DNA of 64,000 nucleotides from a virus. Its lineage: Duplodnaviria; Heunggongvirae; Uroviricota; Caudoviricetes. Positions 92 to 47,108 of the stretch are shown one piece after another. Numbering within the stretch: the stretch's first letter is position 1; each line of letters starts with the position of its first letter. The notes below the pieces were generated by a model. That model had not been told where the DNA came from. It saw nothing but the letters and a program-made list of their open reading frames with translations, and did no database searches. Where the stretch lies: IMG/VR virus record IMGVR_UViG_3300031420_000399; one strand, given 5' to 3'. Made by a program: the position numbers and the translations under genes.

Positions 92-556
92 ATGGCCCAA
101 GAGATGAGTCGAACCGAAAGGCTCCTAGCGAGCCGGAAGGAGCGCCGCAGAAAGCGCTGGAGCAGGCTCCAGGGCGTGCTCATCCTTCTTCTTGTGATCG
201 TCCTTCCTACGGCGGTTTTCGGCGTAGTTCCTTGGGCCATGGGCACCTACGACAGCAGCCATCACCACACCATCGAATGCTCTGTCACCAAGGTCTATGC
301 TGAATCGACTTCGACTCGCTCTGGCAGGGGTGTAGGAGCCTCGGGTCGTCAGATAGTCTTCGCCACGAGCGACTGTGGAGGTCACATCCTTCTCACCAAT
401 GGAGTCTACTGGGACAATGTGAAGGAGCTCGCCGCCTCACTGAAGCCAGGTCGCTACGAGTTCACTGTCGGAGACTCCGAGTGGAAACTCGCTCCGATCT
501 ACAAGGTCTTCAGGGTCTCCCCATCGGCCCAGAAGTACAGCTACCTGGGCCTCTGA
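92..556 (+). CDS. hypothetical membrane-anchored protein (basic N-terminus, one TM helix, beta-rich domain; DUF3592-like architecture)
   Basis: 154-aa ORF; hydrophobic helix LILLLVIVLPTAVFGVV after an RKERRRKR stretch; high GC3. Confidence 0.5.
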   Translation: MAQEMSRTERLLASRKERRRKRWSRLQGVLILLLVIVLPTAVFGVVPWAMGTYDSSHHHTIECSVTKVYAESTSTRSGRGVGASGRQIVFATSDCGGHILLTNGVYWDNVKELAASLKPGRYEFTVGDSEWKLAPIYKVFRVSPSAQKYSYLGL

Positions 557-642
557 TCCAACAGCTATGCGGAGCTGAGACCCTTGGCCTGTGGCTTTGG
601 TAACTTTACCAAGGGCCTCGACACGCCGATCTCCTACTCGAG

Positions 643-672
643 TTGCGCCTTTTGCTGATGCTGTGATAGAGT
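643..672 (+). promoter_or_regulatory. promoter (family): TTGCGC-18-tgaTAGAGT
   Basis: drives the sRNA-like unit; no ORF follows. Confidence 0.5.
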
Positions 673-686
673 GTTCTTGCAGGCAC

Positions 687-747
687 CTTGAGGTGGCTAC
701 TTTTATTTGGAAAACGATCGCTGTCTCGCCTTCCCTGCACTTGAACG
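687..747 (+). repeat. 60-nt direct repeat copy A (CCTTGAGGTGGCTACT...GTCTCGCCTTCCCTG), about 80 percent identical to copy B
   Basis: 15-nt identical core CTTGAGGTGGCTACT at 687-701 and 955-969, then similar tails. Confidence 0.6.
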
Positions 748-790
748 CCCCGGACTCAGACCATCGAGTCCGGGGCTTCTCCCATTTTCG
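748..790 (+). terminator. intrinsic terminator: 10-bp stem CCCCGGACTC/GAGTCCGGGG, loop agaccatc, tail cttctcccatttt
   Basis: ends the sRNA-like unit. Confidence 0.55.
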
Positions 791-807
791 GGTAGCTGGG
801 GTCTCTC

Positions 808-884
808 ATCAACCCAGGAGGGTTGATAGCGGCTAAATCAACCCAGGAGCGTTGATAGTCTGAGATCAATCTCCTAGCATTGAT
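808..884 (+). promoter_or_regulatory. three adjacent imperfect palindromes with ATCAA...TTGAT half-sites (candidate operator cluster)
   Basis: ATCAACCCaggagGGTTGATAG (808-829), ATCAACCCaggagCGTTGATAG (838-859), ATCAATctcctagcATTGAT (865-884); 25-100 nt upstream of promoter B. Confidence 0.5.
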
Positions 885-908
885 TCGGCCGTAGTCGGCG
901 ATTCCCCA

Positions 909-938
909 TTGACAGCTGCCTGCATCCCATGTTAGGGT
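909..938 (+). promoter_or_regulatory. promoter: TTGACA-18-tgtTAGGGT for the TerD-domain gene
   Basis: perfect -35; extended -10. Confidence 0.55.
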
Positions 939-954
939 GGATTCTGTCAGGCCC

Positions 955-1013
955 CTTGAGGTGGCTACTCACTCCTTATTGAACCCGCCGTCTCGCCTTT
1001 CCTGACCTTAGCT
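955..1013 (+). repeat. 60-nt direct repeat copy B forming the 5' leader of the TerD-domain gene
   Basis: lies between promoter B (909-938) and ATG 1040. Confidence 0.6.
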
Positions 1014-1039
1014 TTTTACCCGAAGGGAAACACCACCAC

Positions 1040-3184
1040 ATGGCTACCATTTCAGCCGCCCTCCGTCAGTCCGCTCTCCGTCGCGGCATCCTCGTCGAGA
1101 ACTTCTCCGGGAACAGCCCCGCCAGTGAGGTCGTGCGCTACGCCGCCGTCCTCGAGCTCGCCAACCTGGGCTTCCTCGTGCAGCCCGGTGACCTCAACGG
1201 CTTCTCGGCGGGCGCTTTGAGCTCCGCCATCGACAGCGCCCGCAAGATCATCGGCGCCGATCGGGACATGACCCCGATCTACCCGGGCTTCCCGAAGCAG
1301 GTCGAGGAGCTCTCCACGCTGCAGCTCCTCATGGAGCAGATCCTCCACTACTGGACTGCAGGCGCCTTCCTTCCGAACCACCCCGCAGAGGTCCGCGAGG
1401 GGCTGCCGCTGGAGGACATGCTGCGCAGTGGCCGGAAGCTCCAGCTCCTGTCCGCGGATGTCGCCCTGGAGCGACTCCTCAGCGAGCTCGTCAAGGCTCC
1501 CGTTGCGCTCTCCTCGGATGACCGGGAGCTCCTCACCGAGCTCACCAAGGCGGTCTACGGCGAGAACTTCCACCGGACCATCAGTACCTCTGACCTCGTG
1601 CGCAGCTCCACCAACGGTGAGAACATCCAGGTCTTCGCCGAGGCACTCCGGGATCATGCCAGCACGCTTGTCCACAGCCGGGATGACTACTTCTCTGCGC
1701 TGACCTTCGGTGTCCGCAACAGCGATCACCTCCTGCGGCTGATCCTGTCCTTCTACGGCGCTCCCGCAGCAGACCGCTGGGTCGAGAACTACGAGCTCGC
1801 CGTGGGCACTCTGGCCGACCGGCACTTCCGGGCAGTTCGTTTCTCGAGCGTTCCTCGCTACCAGCGTCAGCTCATCGTGGACGCCCTGGGTAAGCTCACC
1901 GAGGGTTACCGGGCCGACCGGCTCGTGACCCGTCAGAACCTCTGGCGCCGCGTCTTCAAGGGCCTCCACCCCTACGACCTGAAGCTCACGGTTGAGTCGA
2001 AGCGGGCTCTGGACATCGTCCACAGCAACATCGACTACCGGACCCTGAACTCGACCATCGAGCAGGCCCTGGAGGACCGGAAGGTCTCCGAGGCCGTAGA
2101 GCTCCTCGCTGAGCACCAGCCGGGTAATCTCCTCCGGCGCCTCGTGGCCATCCTTCGGCTCACCAAGAAGAAGGCAGACGCCAAGGTCCTCGCGAAGCGA
2201 GTTGCTGAGGTCGGCTCCAGGGCTACGCTCTCCACGCTGATCTCCTCCTACAACGGCGTCCTCGGCGCCAACGATGAGCACGCTCGGGTGAACCGGGTTG
2301 CGGGGCTCAACAACACGATGCTCGATCGAGGTGCCGTCGAGAAGATCGACGCGAACTTCCAGGCTGAGGTCCTCGAGGCTCTGGACCAGGCAATCATCGC
2401 TGCCCTCAAGGCAAAGGGAGCTCCTGTTGCGCCCGTAGGTGTCCTGGGAGACGCATCTGTGCCCCTGGTTCGCCGGGATGCTGCGAGCTCGGATCGAATC
2501 CTCGACCGGGGCGCTGAGCTCGGCCTCGTGGGTGAGGGCGATGTGCTCCGGCTCTTCGGCCACTGGAACAACAACATGGACCAGGGAAGCTACATGGACA
2601 TCGGAGCCGTCGTCCTCGACGAGGACTTCAACGAGATCTCCGTGAGCACCTGGAACTCCTGGAACTACGCCCGGAACTGGAGCACCTACTCCGGCGACAA
2701 GCTGGTCTACCCCGGAGACTCGGCAGCTGAGTTCGTGGATGTGAAGATCGAGGCGCTCAAGCAGAACCTCAAGGGTGCTCGCTGGGTAGCCATGACCGTG
2801 CAGTCCTGGGCCGGTTGGCCCATGGCAGATGTGGACTTCATCGCTGGAGCCATGCTCCGGCAGAAGGCCGGCGATCAGAAGGGTGAGGTCTTTGACGCTC
2901 GCTCCGTGACCACCGCCTTCAAGCCCACCACGAAGTCCACGCAGTCCGTGCCCTTCGCCGTGAACCTGGAGACGGGTAAGATCGTCTGGCTCGACTCTTC
3001 CAACGGTTCCACGGGTTCGGGTAACTCTGCCTCCAACGATGGCACTGTCGGCTCCATCGTCTACGACGAGGCTGCCCGGCCGAAGCTCTCCATGGGGCGC
3101 CTCGCCGAGCTCTGGGCCTCCGCCCACGGTGTCGAGACGGTTCAGGAGCCCGTAGACCGAGACGCAATCCTCGGACTTCTGTAG
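1040..3184 (+). CDS. large protein with C-terminal TerD-like domain (N-terminal 500 aa unassigned)
   Basis: 714-aa ORF; C-terminal block (LFGHWNNN, DIGAVVLDEDFNEI, YSGDKLVYPGDSAAEFVDVKIEAL, ARWVAMTVQSW) follows the TerD motif order; promoter 909-938 upstream. Confidence 0.7.
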   Translation: MATISAALRQSALRRGILVENFSGNSPASEVVRYAAVLELANLGFLVQPGDLNGFSAGALSSAIDSARKIIGADRDMTPIYPGFPKQVEELSTLQLLMEQILHYWTAGAFLPNHPAEVREGLPLEDMLRSGRKLQLLSADVALERLLSELVKAPVALSSDDRELLTELTKAVYGENFHRTISTSDLVRSSTNGENIQVFAEALRDHASTLVHSRDDYFSALTFGVRNSDHLLRLILSFYGAPAADRWVENYELAVGTLADRHFRAVRFSSVPRYQRQLIVDALGKLTEGYRADRLVTRQNLWRRVFKGLHPYDLKLTVESKRALDIVHSNIDYRTLNSTIEQALEDRKVSEAVELLAEHQPGNLLRRLVAILRLTKKKADAKVLAKRVAEVGSRATLSTLISSYNGVLGANDEHARVNRVAGLNNTMLDRGAVEKIDANFQAEVLEALDQAIIAALKAKGAPVAPVGVLGDASVPLVRRDAASSDRILDRGAELGLVGEGDVLRLFGHWNNNMDQGSYMDIGAVVLDEDFNEISVSTWNSWNYARNWSTYSGDKLVYPGDSAAEFVDVKIEALKQNLKGARWVAMTVQSWAGWPMADVDFIAGAMLRQKAGDQKGEVFDARSVTTAFKPTTKSTQSVPFAVNLETGKIVWLDSSNGSTGSGNSASNDGTVGSIVYDEAARPKLSMGRLAELWASAHGVETVQEPVDRDAILGLL

Positions 3185-4637: not shown

Positions 4638-5117
4638 ATGAACAGCTTCCAGTACCCCGCCGCAGTGGCAGGCCGCGCAGAGCTCCTCAAGTTCTCCTAT
4701 GTGGCCCTCGCCATCGGTGCAGCTGAGCTCGCCCCCGAGCTCGCGGCCCTGGAGTCCATCCTCGGCGATGACTACGAAGAGCTGACCCGCAACCGACGGC
4801 TTCGGGACGGTGGCTCCGACTTTCACGCCACCATCGTGCTCCCCAAGGAGTTCAGGACGCTCCGCAAGAGCGCATCTGGTGGTCGCATCGAGATCCCTTC
4901 GAAGGAGCTCGAACTGGAGATCCTCGGCATCGGCACCGCAATTAGCGAGGCGTCCCAGACCTGGTTCGCCATCGCCCGCTCTGAGGCCGTTGTTGCCTAC
5001 CGGAAGCGCCTGGGGCTCCCCTCCCACGATCTCCACATCACCCTGGCCTTCGAGGCCGCAGGCGATGTCCATGGTGTCCCCAAGGATGCCAGCACCCTTC
5101 TGACCACCACCCGCTAG
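4638..5117 (+). CDS. hypothetical protein (159 aa)
   Basis: leaderless ATG 6 nt after tgTAAGGT (4626-4631). Confidence 0.6.
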   Translation: MNSFQYPAAVAGRAELLKFSYVALAIGAAELAPELAALESILGDDYEELTRNRRLRDGGSDFHATIVLPKEFRTLRKSASGGRIEIPSKELELEILGIGTAISEASQTWFAIARSEAVVAYRKRLGLPSHDLHITLAFEAAGDVHGVPKDASTLLTTTR

Positions 5118-5502: not shown

Positions 5503-6213
5503 ATGACCAACAAGCGCATCCGCAGCACAAAGCGAACCATCGACAAGCTCGGCGTTGCCTTCGCCTCGATCATGGTGATCGGCCTCGTTCTCAGTGGCTG
5601 TTCCATGGAGAACGGCGGAGACGCCAAGTCCACTGCCACCACCGATGTCGCGGACTCCCAGTCGGTGCTCAAGAAGCTCGAATCTGCTGACATCATCGAG
5701 GCAAAGAAGGCAGTCTTCAGCTTCGGAGACAAGTGGACGATCACTGCTGACGGCGAGGAGATCGGCGAGATCAAGGGTCAGCCGATTTACTCCATCGGTG
5801 ATACCTACTCCCTGTTCTCTCCGGCCGGTAACCTCGTTGCCAGTGAGGCGGAGGGCTTCCGGGTTGTCAACCACAGCGCGGGGCTTTACGACTACAACAA
5901 CAAGAAGCGCGGTGAGATCCAGGAGCAGTTCTCCATGTTCCTCGCTGAGTACAAGATCAAGGACGCCGAGGACAAGACCGTCGGCACGGCGAAGCAGAAG
6001 TTCAGCCTCACCATGAACTTCGACCTCGAGGGCAAGCATGGGGACGCCGAGTACACGATCTCCAAGGCCGCCTTCTCCATGGGTTCCAAGGTCACCATCG
6101 AGGCCCAGAGCAAGGATCGCTCGGTGGATGCTGTGGATGCACTCTGGCTCGCAGTGATCGCCTCTGAGGTAGAGGACGCCAAGAGCGACGACAGCAACAA
6201 GAAAAACCGCTAG
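5503..6213 (+). CDS. lipoprotein (236 aa)
   Basis: signal peptide ending in lipobox LSGC; leaderless ATG 6 nt after tgTAGGAT (5491-5496). Confidence 0.65.
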   Translation: MTNKRIRSTKRTIDKLGVAFASIMVIGLVLSGCSMENGGDAKSTATTDVADSQSVLKKLESADIIEAKKAVFSFGDKWTITADGEEIGEIKGQPIYSIGDTYSLFSPAGNLVASEAEGFRVVNHSAGLYDYNNKKRGEIQEQFSMFLAEYKIKDAEDKTVGTAKQKFSLTMNFDLEGKHGDAEYTISKAAFSMGSKVTIEAQSKDRSVDAVDALWLAVIASEVEDAKSDDSNKKNR

Positions 6214-47078: not shown

Positions 47079-47108
47079 TTGCATTTTCATCAGCGACCAT
47101 GTTACGGT
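47079..47108 (+). promoter_or_regulatory. promoter: TTGCAT-18-tgtTACGGT (ATG 47192)
   Basis: spacing and hexamers. Confidence 0.45.

What the first reader, a model, noticed from the sequence alone, without database searches (positions are those of the whole stretch)
560..1040. Candidate sRNA that duplicates the 5' leader of the TerD-domain gene
A family promoter (643-672) points into a stretch with no credible ORF. About 8 nt after the predicted start lies a 60-nt module (687-747), followed by a 10-bp GC hairpin plus T-run (748-790). The same module, with an identical 15-mer CTTGAGGTGGCTACT and an 80 percent similar tail, recurs at 955-1013, about 8 nt downstream of a second promoter (909-938), as the leader of the 714-aa TerD-domain gene. 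A short terminated RNA sharing its 5' end with an mRNA leader suggests a decoy or titration arrangement for an RNA-binding regulator, or attenuation.
Basis: partly seen in the sequence, partly recalled or inferred. Interest (0 to 1): 0.75.

Follow-up and report, generated by a model that had tools for sequence, protein, structure and literature searches.

The report
New small RNA partnering TerD-family protein
The duplicated 60-base module is real: it belongs to a structured RNA family absent from the RNA-family library searched, and that family sits next to one large uncharacterised protein gene in many phages and bacteria, here once as a free small RNA and once as the gene's leader, which suggests an unknown RNA-protein partnership.

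Summary
The window holds exactly two copies of a ~60-nt module (679-738 and 947-1005). Each starts at the predicted transcription start of its own sigma-70-like promoter. Copy 1 is followed by an 11-bp GC hairpin with a T-rich tail. Copy 2 ends 34 nt before the ATG of the 714-aa gene.

The module is not a local oddity. It is a hairpin with two helices (P1, internal loop, P2, pyrimidine-rich terminal loop) and has strong covariation. I found 54 copies in 29 related phage or metagenome loci. A diverged 'bacterial type' lies next to distant homologues of the same protein in Firmicutes, Planctomycetes, Acidobacteria, Proteobacteria and large phages.

The layout promoter, module, terminator, promoter, module, gene recurs in 12 of 14 two-module loci. 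Elsewhere the module forms tandem arrays upstream or downstream of the gene. It also occurs on the opposite strand, and inside tRNA gene clusters. Some copies carry a permuted tRNA-like domain.

Rfam 15 has no match. The protein is an alpha-solenoid plus a TerD-like domain. Its best structural matches outside TerD are Ro60, but it shows no sequence homology to Ro60.

The best reading is that the RNA is the protein's cognate ligand, in a Ro60/Y-RNA-like arrangement, and that the leader copy allows titration or autoregulation. This is inferred, not shown.

The parts
643..672 (+). Promoter P1 for the stand-alone RNA: TTGCGC, 17-nt spacer, extended -10 TGaTAGAGT
   Evidence: Sequence and regex scan. 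An equivalent promoter with a conserved tGTGATAGAGT lies at the same place in L018-L023 and L042. The generic scanner does not call it.
679..738 (+). Module copy 1. P1 is 679-683 with 734-738. The internal loop is 684-688 and 729-733. P2 is 689-697 with 720-728. The terminal loop is 698-719 (UACUUUUAUUUGGAAAACGAUC).
   Evidence: CM R1 hit 677-741, 66.8 bits, E 1e-12. MFE equals the centroid fold. Covariation is shown on A5.
747..790 (+). Intrinsic-terminator-like element: 11-bp GC hairpin (747-757 with 766-776) plus a T-rich tail (777-790). It defines a predicted RNA of about 100-112 nt, from 679 to about 790.
   Evidence: arms 100% complementary. (z = -3.74 for 679-790). A hairpin with a T-run lies at the same position but with different sequence in 12 related loci. 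The tail in the window itself is weak.
808..884 (.). Three tandem 20-bp palindromes ATCAAC-N8-GTTGAT (808-827, 837-856, 865-884) between the terminator and P2. They are candidate operator sites, or hairpins in read-through RNA.
   Evidence: These are the only three matches in the window. They are conserved in the 87%-identity relatives L018-L020 but not in the 60%-identity relatives.
909..938 (+). Promoter P2 for the mRNA: TTGACA, 17-nt spacer, extended -10 TGtTAGGGT
   Evidence: Conserved in L018-L023 and L042.
947..1005 (+). Module copy 2, the 5' leader of the 714-aa gene. P1 is 947-951 with 1001-1005. P2 is 957-965 with 987-995.
   Evidence: CM R1 hit 945-1008, 59.1 bits, E 7e-11. The fold matches copy 1.
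1022..1030 (+). Shine-Dalgarno-like GAAGGGAAA, 9 nt upstream of the ATG. It is predicted to be largely unpaired.
   Evidence: Sequence and fold of 947-1045.
1040..3184 (+). 714-aa protein. It has an N-terminal alpha-helical solenoid (about residues 1-460) and a C-terminal TerD-like beta-sandwich.

Best explanation
The module is a conserved structured RNA of about 60 nt. It has a closing helix P1 that includes the transcript's 5' end, a 5x5 internal loop, a 9-bp helix P2 that opens with a U.G pair and holds conserved wobble pairs, and a terminal loop with a pyrimidine-rich 5' side. It belongs to a family, absent from the RNA library and papers searched, that is inherited together with a ~700-aa solenoid + TerD-like protein in phages and bacteria.

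In this window it is made twice. Copy 1 is a free RNA of about 100-110 nt (P1 promoter, module, intrinsic terminator). Copy 2 is the first 60 nt of the protein's mRNA (P2 promoter, module, SD, ATG).

The most likely mechanism has two parts. First, the protein specifically binds this hairpin, and the free RNA is its partner in a ribonucleoprotein, analogous to Ro60 with Y RNA. Second, the leader copy is a lower-priority binding site, so protein that exceeds the free RNA pool binds its own mRNA and limits its translation (titration or autoregulation).

Shown: the RNA structure, its strand, its tight linkage to the gene family, and the conserved promoter/terminator layout. Inferred: that the protein is the binder, that binding represses translation, and the function of the complex.
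For: (1) Structure. 54 phage-type copies are 91.9% paired, against 39-61% when the partners are slid. 12 of 15 pairs have compensatory double changes, and P2 is 96.5% paired. 48 bacterial-type copies are 92.9% paired against 38-49%, with covariation score 0.90 against 0.13-0.18. RNAalifold finds the same architecture independently. Abundant conserved G.U pairs fix the + strand.

(2) Linkage. All 54 phage-type hits are on the gene's strand and upstream of a homologue. All 25 metagenome loci that hold upstream sequence carry at least one copy. Only two hits occur in the 64-kb window. All 11 distant bacterial loci (23-28% aa identity) carry the bacterial type, as do B. thuringiensis and Paenibacillus and the isolated phages WXIN, XacN1 and LpeD.

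(3) Independent RNA gene. The design of own promoter plus terminator recurs in 12 of 14 two-module loci. In Kurthia the only copy is a promoter-module-terminator unit, convergent and about 750 nt downstream of the gene. In Pleionea it is divergent. Arrays lie downstream of the gene in L097, L093 and L056. Copies sit inside tRNA, tmRNA and RNase P RNA clusters.

(4) Y-RNA-like design. In three hits (two of them the same sequence, L097 and L093) the terminal loop holds a permuted tRNA-like domain with a T-arm, a closed acceptor stem and a D-arm. YrlA is built this way (PMC4201824).

(6) Leader position. The last module ends 21-31 nt before the ATG in most loci. In some bacteria it ends only 10-14 nt before a start codon that lacks an SD, so a bound protein would overlap the initiation region.
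Against: There is no direct evidence that the protein binds RNA. No known RNA-binding domain is detected by sequence.

Co-inheritance of the RNA and the gene is equally expected for a purely cis-acting regulator.

In the window the module ends 34 nt before the ATG and the SD is predicted to be free, so steric repression is not obvious.

The single-module loci (promoter, module, hairpin, SD, ATG) also fit attenuation or a type III toxin-antitoxin layout.

The thermodynamic stability of the isolated modules is unremarkable (z about 0 and -2.2).

The window's terminator has a poor T-run.
Confidence: 0.5

Rival explanations
1. The module is a cis-acting riboswitch or attenuator. Its internal loop and terminal loop bind a small ligand or ion, possibly one related to TerD function (such as Ca2+ or a nucleotide-like signal). 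Binding controls termination at the downstream hairpin or controls translation. The tandem copies sharpen the response.
For: The hairpin is conserved and covarying, with invariant unpaired nucleotides, and sits in 5' leaders. The layout module, hairpin with T-run, SD, ATG occurs in single-module loci and in B. thuringiensis. In Kurthia the module plus terminator precedes another gene. Gene-specific orphan riboswitch candidates such as yjdF are a precedent (PMC4793209, listed).
Against: I saw no sequence able to form an antiterminator between the module and the hairpin in the window. A second promoter follows the terminator.

Copies occur downstream of the gene, divergent from it, and inside tRNA clusters.

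Arrays reach 4-5 copies. The terminal loop tolerates insertions of 50-80 nt, including a tRNA-like domain. These features are unusual for a compact aptamer. No ligand is suggested by conserved neighbouring genes.
Confidence: 0.15
2. This is a type III toxin-antitoxin-like pair. The RNA neutralises the large protein, which would be a growth-arresting or defence effector. The terminator keeps the RNA in excess over the protein. Phage copies serve self-protection or counter-defence.
For: The order promoter, RNA repeat(s), terminator, protein gene is the ToxIN layout (established knowledge). Tandem arrays have 2-5 units. The bacterial locus is a stand-alone two-part unit without conserved neighbours, next to transposase genes in B. 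thuringiensis. TerD proteins are linked to phage and stress resistance (PMC7824862).
Against: The protein has no ToxN/AbiQ-like endoribonuclease fold and no PADLOC match. The repeats are diverged structured hairpins, not near-identical units of about 36 nt. In the window a second promoter drives the gene independently of the terminator. The tRNA-like inserts are unexplained by this model. This model is a special case of 'the protein binds the RNA' and differs only in the consequence.
Confidence: 0.12
3. The module is a generic RNA-stability or processing element, or a decoy for a host factor. One form is a 5'-terminal stem-loop that protects transcripts from 5'-end-dependent RNases. Another is a pyrimidine-rich decoy for a host RNA-binding protein or nuclease. 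In either case there is no specific tie to the encoded protein.
For: P1 starts at the predicted +1, so the 5' end is base-paired in every promoter-proximal copy. The loop and internal-loop motifs are pyrimidine-rich (UUCCUUCUA, CUUUCC).
Against: A generic stabiliser would not be restricted to one gene family across phyla. It would not keep specific loop sequences, and it would not appear only twice in 64 kb. Internal copies in tandem arrays are not at a 5' end.
Confidence: 0.08
4. The module is a DNA-level element, such as repeated protein-binding sites, iterons or recombination sites, rather than an RNA.
For: It contains inverted repeats and lies next to promoters.
Against: The helices covary while their sequences change. 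More than 100 cells are G.U pairs, which would be A.C mismatches on the other strand, so the structure is strand-specific. The orientation relative to promoters and terminators is constant.
Confidence: 0.02

Closest known systems
Ro60 (Rsr) with Y RNAs (YrlA/YrlB) in bacteria and mycobacteriophages
   Different: There is no sequence relationship to TROVE (Pfam none; hhalign probability 0.24%). The C-terminal domain is TerD-like, not vWA. I did not see the Ro-binding motif (GNCGAAN0-1G) in the RNA. Rfam shows no match to any family, including the Y RNA families it holds. My models do not hit the Bxz1 Ro locus. The two window copies have no tRNA-like domain.
Type III toxin-antitoxin systems (ToxIN, CptIN, TenpIN)
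   Same: The layout is promoter, RNA repeat(s), intrinsic terminator, protein gene. Both have tandem RNA arrays, two-component loci in bacteria and phages, and RNA expected to be in excess over protein.
   Different: The protein is a 700-aa solenoid + TerD protein, not a small ToxN-fold endoribonuclease. The units are 60-75-nt covarying hairpins, not near-identical repeats of about 36 nt. There is an extra promoter and an extra leader copy. Copies also occur downstream of the gene and on the opposite strand.
Autoregulatory mRNA leaders that mimic a protein's primary RNA site (ribosomal-protein leaders, e.g. the rpsF S6:S18 leader, PMC3895269)
   Same: A copy of the RNA ligand is placed in the 5' UTR of the binder's own mRNA, so that surplus protein can feed back on its own synthesis.
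   Different: Here the presumed primary ligand is a dedicated small RNA with its own promoter and terminator, not rRNA. Binding and repression are untested.
Orphan gene-specific riboswitch candidates and tandem riboswitches
   Same: A conserved covarying leader element is tied to one gene family of unknown function. It is sometimes tandem and sometimes followed by a terminator.
   Different: I saw no alternative-pairing expression platform. Copies occur outside 5' UTRs. The loop accepts very large insertions.

Membership tests
Any Rfam 15 family | Match to a curated covariance model at or near the gathering score | tested here: not met
   The whole window at gathering threshold gives 0 hits. 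Permissive scans of window 500-1100, WXIN, L011 and L049 give only noise. Bacterial and viral loci hit only tRNA, tmRNA, RNase P and cobalamin models.
Y RNA / YrlA | Encoded within a few kb of a Ro60/TROVE orthologue | tested here: not met
Y RNA / YrlA | Terminal stem carrying the conserved Ro-binding motif (GNCGAAN0-1G in YrlA, PMC4201824) | tested here: not met
   The consensus of A5 and A8 shows GGC(N)CC / UUUCC or GGCUAU / CUUUCC instead. This was judged by eye on the consensus; no pattern search for the motif was run.
Y RNA / YrlA | Permuted tRNA-like domain (T-arm, closed acceptor stem, D-arm) distal to the protein-binding stem | tested here: inconclusive
   It is present in L097 7190-7331, L093 2138-2278(-) (the same sequence as L097) and L056 8090-8233. 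It is absent from both window copies and from most members.
Ro60/TROVE protein family | TROVE HEAT-repeat ring plus vWA domain, detectable by profile | tested here: not met
   Pfam finds none in 32 members. PDB sequence searches find none. hhalign is negative. The structural similarity is modest, and ring closure could not be inspected.
TerD family | TerD beta-sandwich domain | tested here: met
Type III toxin-antitoxin | Toxin is a ToxN/AbiQ-type endoribonuclease | tested here: not met
   No such fold or PADLOC hit.
Type III toxin-antitoxin | RNA repeats followed by a terminator upstream of the protein gene | tested here: met
   Seen in window copy 1, in 12 of 14 two-module loci, and in the single-module loci L030 and L046. 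The repeats are diverged rather than near-identical.
Transcription-terminating riboswitch | Aptamer whose 3' part competes with a terminator through alternative pairing | tested here: inconclusive
   I saw no complementarity between the module and the hairpin 747-776 by inspection, and the fold of 679-790 keeps both intact. I did not search systematically across loci.
Stand-alone bacterial sRNA gene | Own promoter, defined 5' end, intrinsic terminator, no ORF | tested here: met
   Promoter 643-672, module from 679, hairpin plus T tail 747-790. The same design recurs in relatives and in Kurthia. Transcription itself is not testable here.

The most novel reading that the evidence does not exclude
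A second ribonucleoprotein class, independent of Ro60/Y RNA at the sequence level. It pairs a solenoid + TerD protein with a dedicated hairpin RNA that can carry a tRNA mimic. It is widespread in Firmicutes, several other phyla and large phages. It would act in RNA surveillance or repair, or in phage-host conflict. The window's pair of sRNA and leader would set the RNA:protein stoichiometry.
Probability: 0.35. Interest if true: 0.9.

Novelty: new variant of a known kind. Interest (0 to 1): 0.8.

Why it matters
If the inference holds, it gives a first functional handle on a ~700-aa 'TerD family / cytoplasmic protein'. That protein is found in thousands of bacterial genomes, including the B. cereus group and Paenibacillus, and in many large phages.

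It would also add a new structured RNA family with more than 100 examples collected here. It would show that the Y-RNA design (a protein-binding stem plus an optional tRNA mimic, encoded beside its protein) has arisen with unrelated parts.

The hypothesis can be tested directly in culturable systems: Mycobacterium phage WXIN, Xanthomonas phage XacN1, Lactobacillus phage LpeD, B. thuringiensis, Paenibacillus and Kurthia zopfii.

Tried and rejected
(1) Near and distant BLAST of the region against isolated phages found nothing except WXIN matching itself.

(2) Rfam at gathering and at permissive thresholds gave no family.

(3) Sequence homology of the protein to Ro60/TROVE was rejected.

(4) Known defence systems gave no PADLOC hit.

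(5) A small-ORF reading was set aside by argument, not by a conservation test. The 81-aa ORF 591-836 spans the promoter, module and terminator. In the bacterial type the GGCUAUG 'ATG' is not conserved (ATT, ATC and ATA also occur), and the P2 length varies while pairing is kept.

(6) An anti-SD or SD-sequestering role for the pyrimidine motifs was rejected. The complementarity to the SD is only 5-6 nt and is not conserved. Several loci have no SD at all.

(7) RNase III-type intergenic processing sites, as in T7, were rejected because the element is restricted to one gene family.

(8) The generic promoter/terminator scanner did not call the window's elements. Their reality rests on positional conservation in relatives.

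(9) Literature searches found no paper that links this protein family to an RNA motif. The terms used were SCO0854/MXAN_6230, TerD + RNA motif, TerD + TROVE/Y RNA, and YrlA + phage.

(10) The regex scan of viral contigs for the bacterial-type motif returned mostly chance hits. Only about 12 of the 80 viral loci carried over to the covariance-model search were confirmed by it.
Full report
1. WHAT IS IN THE WINDOW

The window is about 60% GC, has genes almost only on the + strand, has no tRNAs, and has no near match among isolated phages. Its own contig is 193 kb.

Between the 154-aa ORF (92-556) and the 714-aa ORF (1040-3184) lies a 483-nt non-coding stretch. It holds two sigma-70-like promoters with an extended -10:
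- TTGCGC-17-TGaTAGAGT at 643-672
- TTGACA-17-TGtTAGGGT at 909-938

These are two of only three such + strand sites in 64 kb.

Each promoter is followed, 6-8 nt after the -10 hexamer, by a repeat copy. The repeat blocks are 674-701 with 942-969 (89% identical) and 719-742 with 986-1009 (83% identical).

Copy 1 is followed by a perfect 11-bp GC hairpin (747-757 with 766-776) and a T-rich tail. Copy 2 runs into an SD-like GAAGGGAAA (1022-1030) and the ATG at 1040.

Both copies fold into the same shape: a 5-bp P1, a 5x5 internal loop, a 9-bp P2 that opens with U.G, and a loop of about 21 nt. Taken alone, the folds are not unusually stable (z about 0 and -2.2). The evidence for structure therefore has to come from comparison with relatives.

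2. COMPARATIVE EVIDENCE FOR A STRUCTURED RNA

The closest isolated relative of the 714-aa protein is in Mycobacterium phage WXIN (45% identity). Upstream of that gene is a 413-nt unannotated gap holding five tandem units of about 76 nt with the same architecture. An IMG/VR contig has four units, and a 3.7-kb MAG contig has two, each with its own promoter.

A covariance model built from these 13 copies (R1) found 54 significant hits in 313 kb of related loci. All are on the gene's strand. All lie upstream of a homologue with at least 41% identity. Only two are in the 64-kb window. A filter-free scan of the window added nothing above 10.5 bits.

On the 53 distinct sequences:
- 91.9% of cells are paired, against 39-61% when the partners are slid.
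- 12 of 15 pairs show compensatory double changes.
- P2 is 96.5% paired.
- Conserved G.U and U.G pairs (31 and 38 sequences at two adjacent positions) show the folded strand is the + strand, which argues for RNA rather than duplex DNA.

In 12 of 14 loci with two separated modules, the layout matches the window:
- The upstream copy has its own TTGnnn-(15-19)-TAnnnT promoter, ending 3-6 nt before the hit.
- The upstream copy has a GC-rich hairpin with a T-tail within about 45 nt downstream. The hairpin sequence differs between lineages but its position is kept.
- The downstream copy has its own promoter and no convincing terminator.

The last module ends 21-31 nt before the ATG in most loci.

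Single-module loci show promoter, module, hairpin (with or without T-run), SD, ATG. Mycobacteriophage-type loci have 3-5 head-to-tail modules with no room for promoters between them.

4. THE FAMILY IS MUCH WIDER

All 11 bacterial genome loci that encode distant homologues (23-28% identity) carry a diverged 'bacterial-type' module. The hosts include Brevibacillus, Kurthia, Pleionea, Planctomycetes, Acidobacteria, Bacteriovoracaceae and Clostridia. The module reads P1-GGCUAU-P2-YUUCCUUCUA...UAG-P2'-CUUUCC-P1'.

RNAalifold independently predicts P1 (6 bp), a 3/4-nt internal loop and P2 (10 bp). 12 of 16 pairs are compensatory.

A second model (R2) found 48 hits. These include weak cross-hits on phage-type modules (E about 2e-3), which link the two types. 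Covariation is very strong: 92.9% paired against 38-49%, and score 0.90 against 0.13-0.18.

The protein family is large. There are 2861 hits at E below 1e-10. NCBI names them 'TerD family protein' or 'cytoplasmic protein', and they are common in Paenibacillus and the B. cereus group. In bacteria the gene stands alone without conserved neighbours.

B. thuringiensis has promoter, two modules, a long hairpin with a T-run, about 190 nt, then the gene. Paenibacillus has two modules, the last ending 10 nt before an ATG with no SD.

Isolated phages with modules are WXIN (5 copies), XacN1 (3 copies), LpeD (1 copy), and possibly Weasels2 (a weak hit downstream of the gene).

5. THE RNA IS NOT ONLY A LEADER

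- In Kurthia zopfii the single copy is a complete unit of promoter (TTGTTA-17-TATAAT), module and terminator. It lies on the opposite strand, about 750 nt downstream of the gene, and the gene has no copy upstream.
- In Pleionea the copy is divergent from the gene.
- In viral contigs, arrays lie downstream of the gene. L097 has four upstream and four downstream. L093 has four downstream. L056 has two upstream and three downstream.
- In L108, L089 and L056 the modules sit inside clusters of tRNA, tmRNA and RNase P RNA genes.
- In three hits (two of them the same sequence, L097 and L093) the terminal loop is replaced by a permuted tRNA-like domain. It has a variable loop, the T-arm GGUUCGAGUCC, a closed acceptor stem and the D-arm UAGCUCAGUCGGUAGAGC.

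That last design is the one described for the bacterial Y RNA YrlA. YrlA and YrlB are encoded upstream of the Ro60 orthologue and processed from one precursor (PMC4201824).

6. THE PROTEIN

Pfam, the PDB sequence search and PADLOC give nothing meaningful. NCBIfam gives a sub-threshold hit to the MXAN_6230/SCO0854 family. PHROGs gives an unknown-function family.

So the protein works like Ro60 at most by analogy. It is not a member of that family.

7. INTERPRETATION

Established:
- The RNA is structured and is read from the + strand.
- It is tightly linked to this gene family across phyla.
- It has a recurrent design, as a promoter-to-terminator RNA gene and as a leader.

Inferred (confidence about 0.5):
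- The encoded protein binds the hairpin.
- The free RNA is its partner.

Rivals:
- A ligand-sensing riboswitch or attenuator (0.15). It is disfavoured by copies outside 5' UTRs, the large loop insertions and the lack of a visible antiterminator.
- A type III TA-like neutralising RNA (0.12). It has the same layout but a different kind of protein.
- A generic stabiliser or a host-factor decoy (0.08).
- A DNA element (0.02).

8. NOVELTY

Nothing in Rfam 15 matches. The literature searches found no paper tying this protein family to an RNA. One review only notes stand-alone TerD genes in actinobacterial jumbo phages (PMC7824862).

I rate it a new variant of a known kind: a protein-specific neighbouring ncRNA combined with an autoregulatory leader mimic, built from parts with no detectable relationship to known examples.

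Noticed in passing
window 808-884: Three tandem 20-bp palindromes (ATCAACCCAGGAGGGTTGAT, ATCAACCCAGGAGCGTTGAT, ATCAATCTCCTAGCATTGAT) lie between the sRNA terminator and promoter P2. There are no other copies in the window. They are conserved in the 87%-identity relatives, and in L019 one copy has its centre inverted. They are candidate operator sites for a repressor of P2.
   Followed up: partly
window 577-619: An 11-bp inverted repeat (GAGACCCTTGG / CCAAGGGCCTC, with 21 nt between the arms) lies just after the stop of the upstream 154-aa ORF. It may be that gene's terminator, which would insulate P1.
   Followed up: no
window 4638-5117 and 5503-6213; L046 5713-6267: The neighbouring genes include a 2H-SAK phosphoesterase (Pfam E 3e-14) and a faint LOR-like protein. 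A relative on an 828-kb contig has HAD_SAK_2, R2K ATP-grasp, HIT and NMN-transporter genes nearby. 'Swiss Army Knife' RNA-repair-type enzymes recur near this gene.
   Followed up: partly
window 47079-47108: This is the third and only other + strand site matching TTGNNN-N14-16-TGNTANNNT (TTGCAT...TGTTACGGT). It is a possible additional early promoter of the same type.
   Followed up: no
L108 4030-4350; L056 4738-5051: A 463-kb viral contig encodes a full class A RNase P RNA (208 bits) inside a long tRNA array. Another viral contig encodes a tmRNA. Modules of the new RNA family sit in the same RNA-gene clusters.
   Followed up: no
L036 about 1346-1693: In one relative, a DksA/TraR-type zinc-finger ORF (CxxC...C motif) is inserted between the terminated sRNA copy and the leader copy.
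   Followed up: no
L050 4918-5003; L006 2000-2077; L007 2733-2811: In several bacterial loci the annotated start codon lies only 10-14 nt after the module, with no Shine-Dalgarno sequence. This suggests either that the module takes part in initiation or that the start codons are mis-assigned.
   Followed up: no
A8/A9 consensus (e.g. L012 2735-2804): The invariant loop motif CCUUCCUUCUA of the bacterial type resembles the 3' tail of Bacillus 16S rRNA (CCUCCUUUCUA, recalled from memory). It also contains UUCCU and UCCUU, which I recall as MazF-type cleavage motifs. This hints at mimicry but is untested.
   Followed up: no
L173 990-1853; L174 5094-6083: Phages XacN1 and RcXuper both encode a nucleotidyltransferase within 1-2 kb of the TerD-family gene. 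RcXuper also has tRNA genes and a 1.9-kb unannotated stretch upstream of the gene.
   Followed up: no
L046 (contig Ga0540622_0000002, 828 kb) and other contigs of 475-820 kb: Close homologues (53-57% identity) sit on contigs of 0.5-0.8 Mb. The local gene content looks phage-like, with mostly hypothetical genes. I could not decide whether these are very large phages or host chromosomes.
   Followed up: partly
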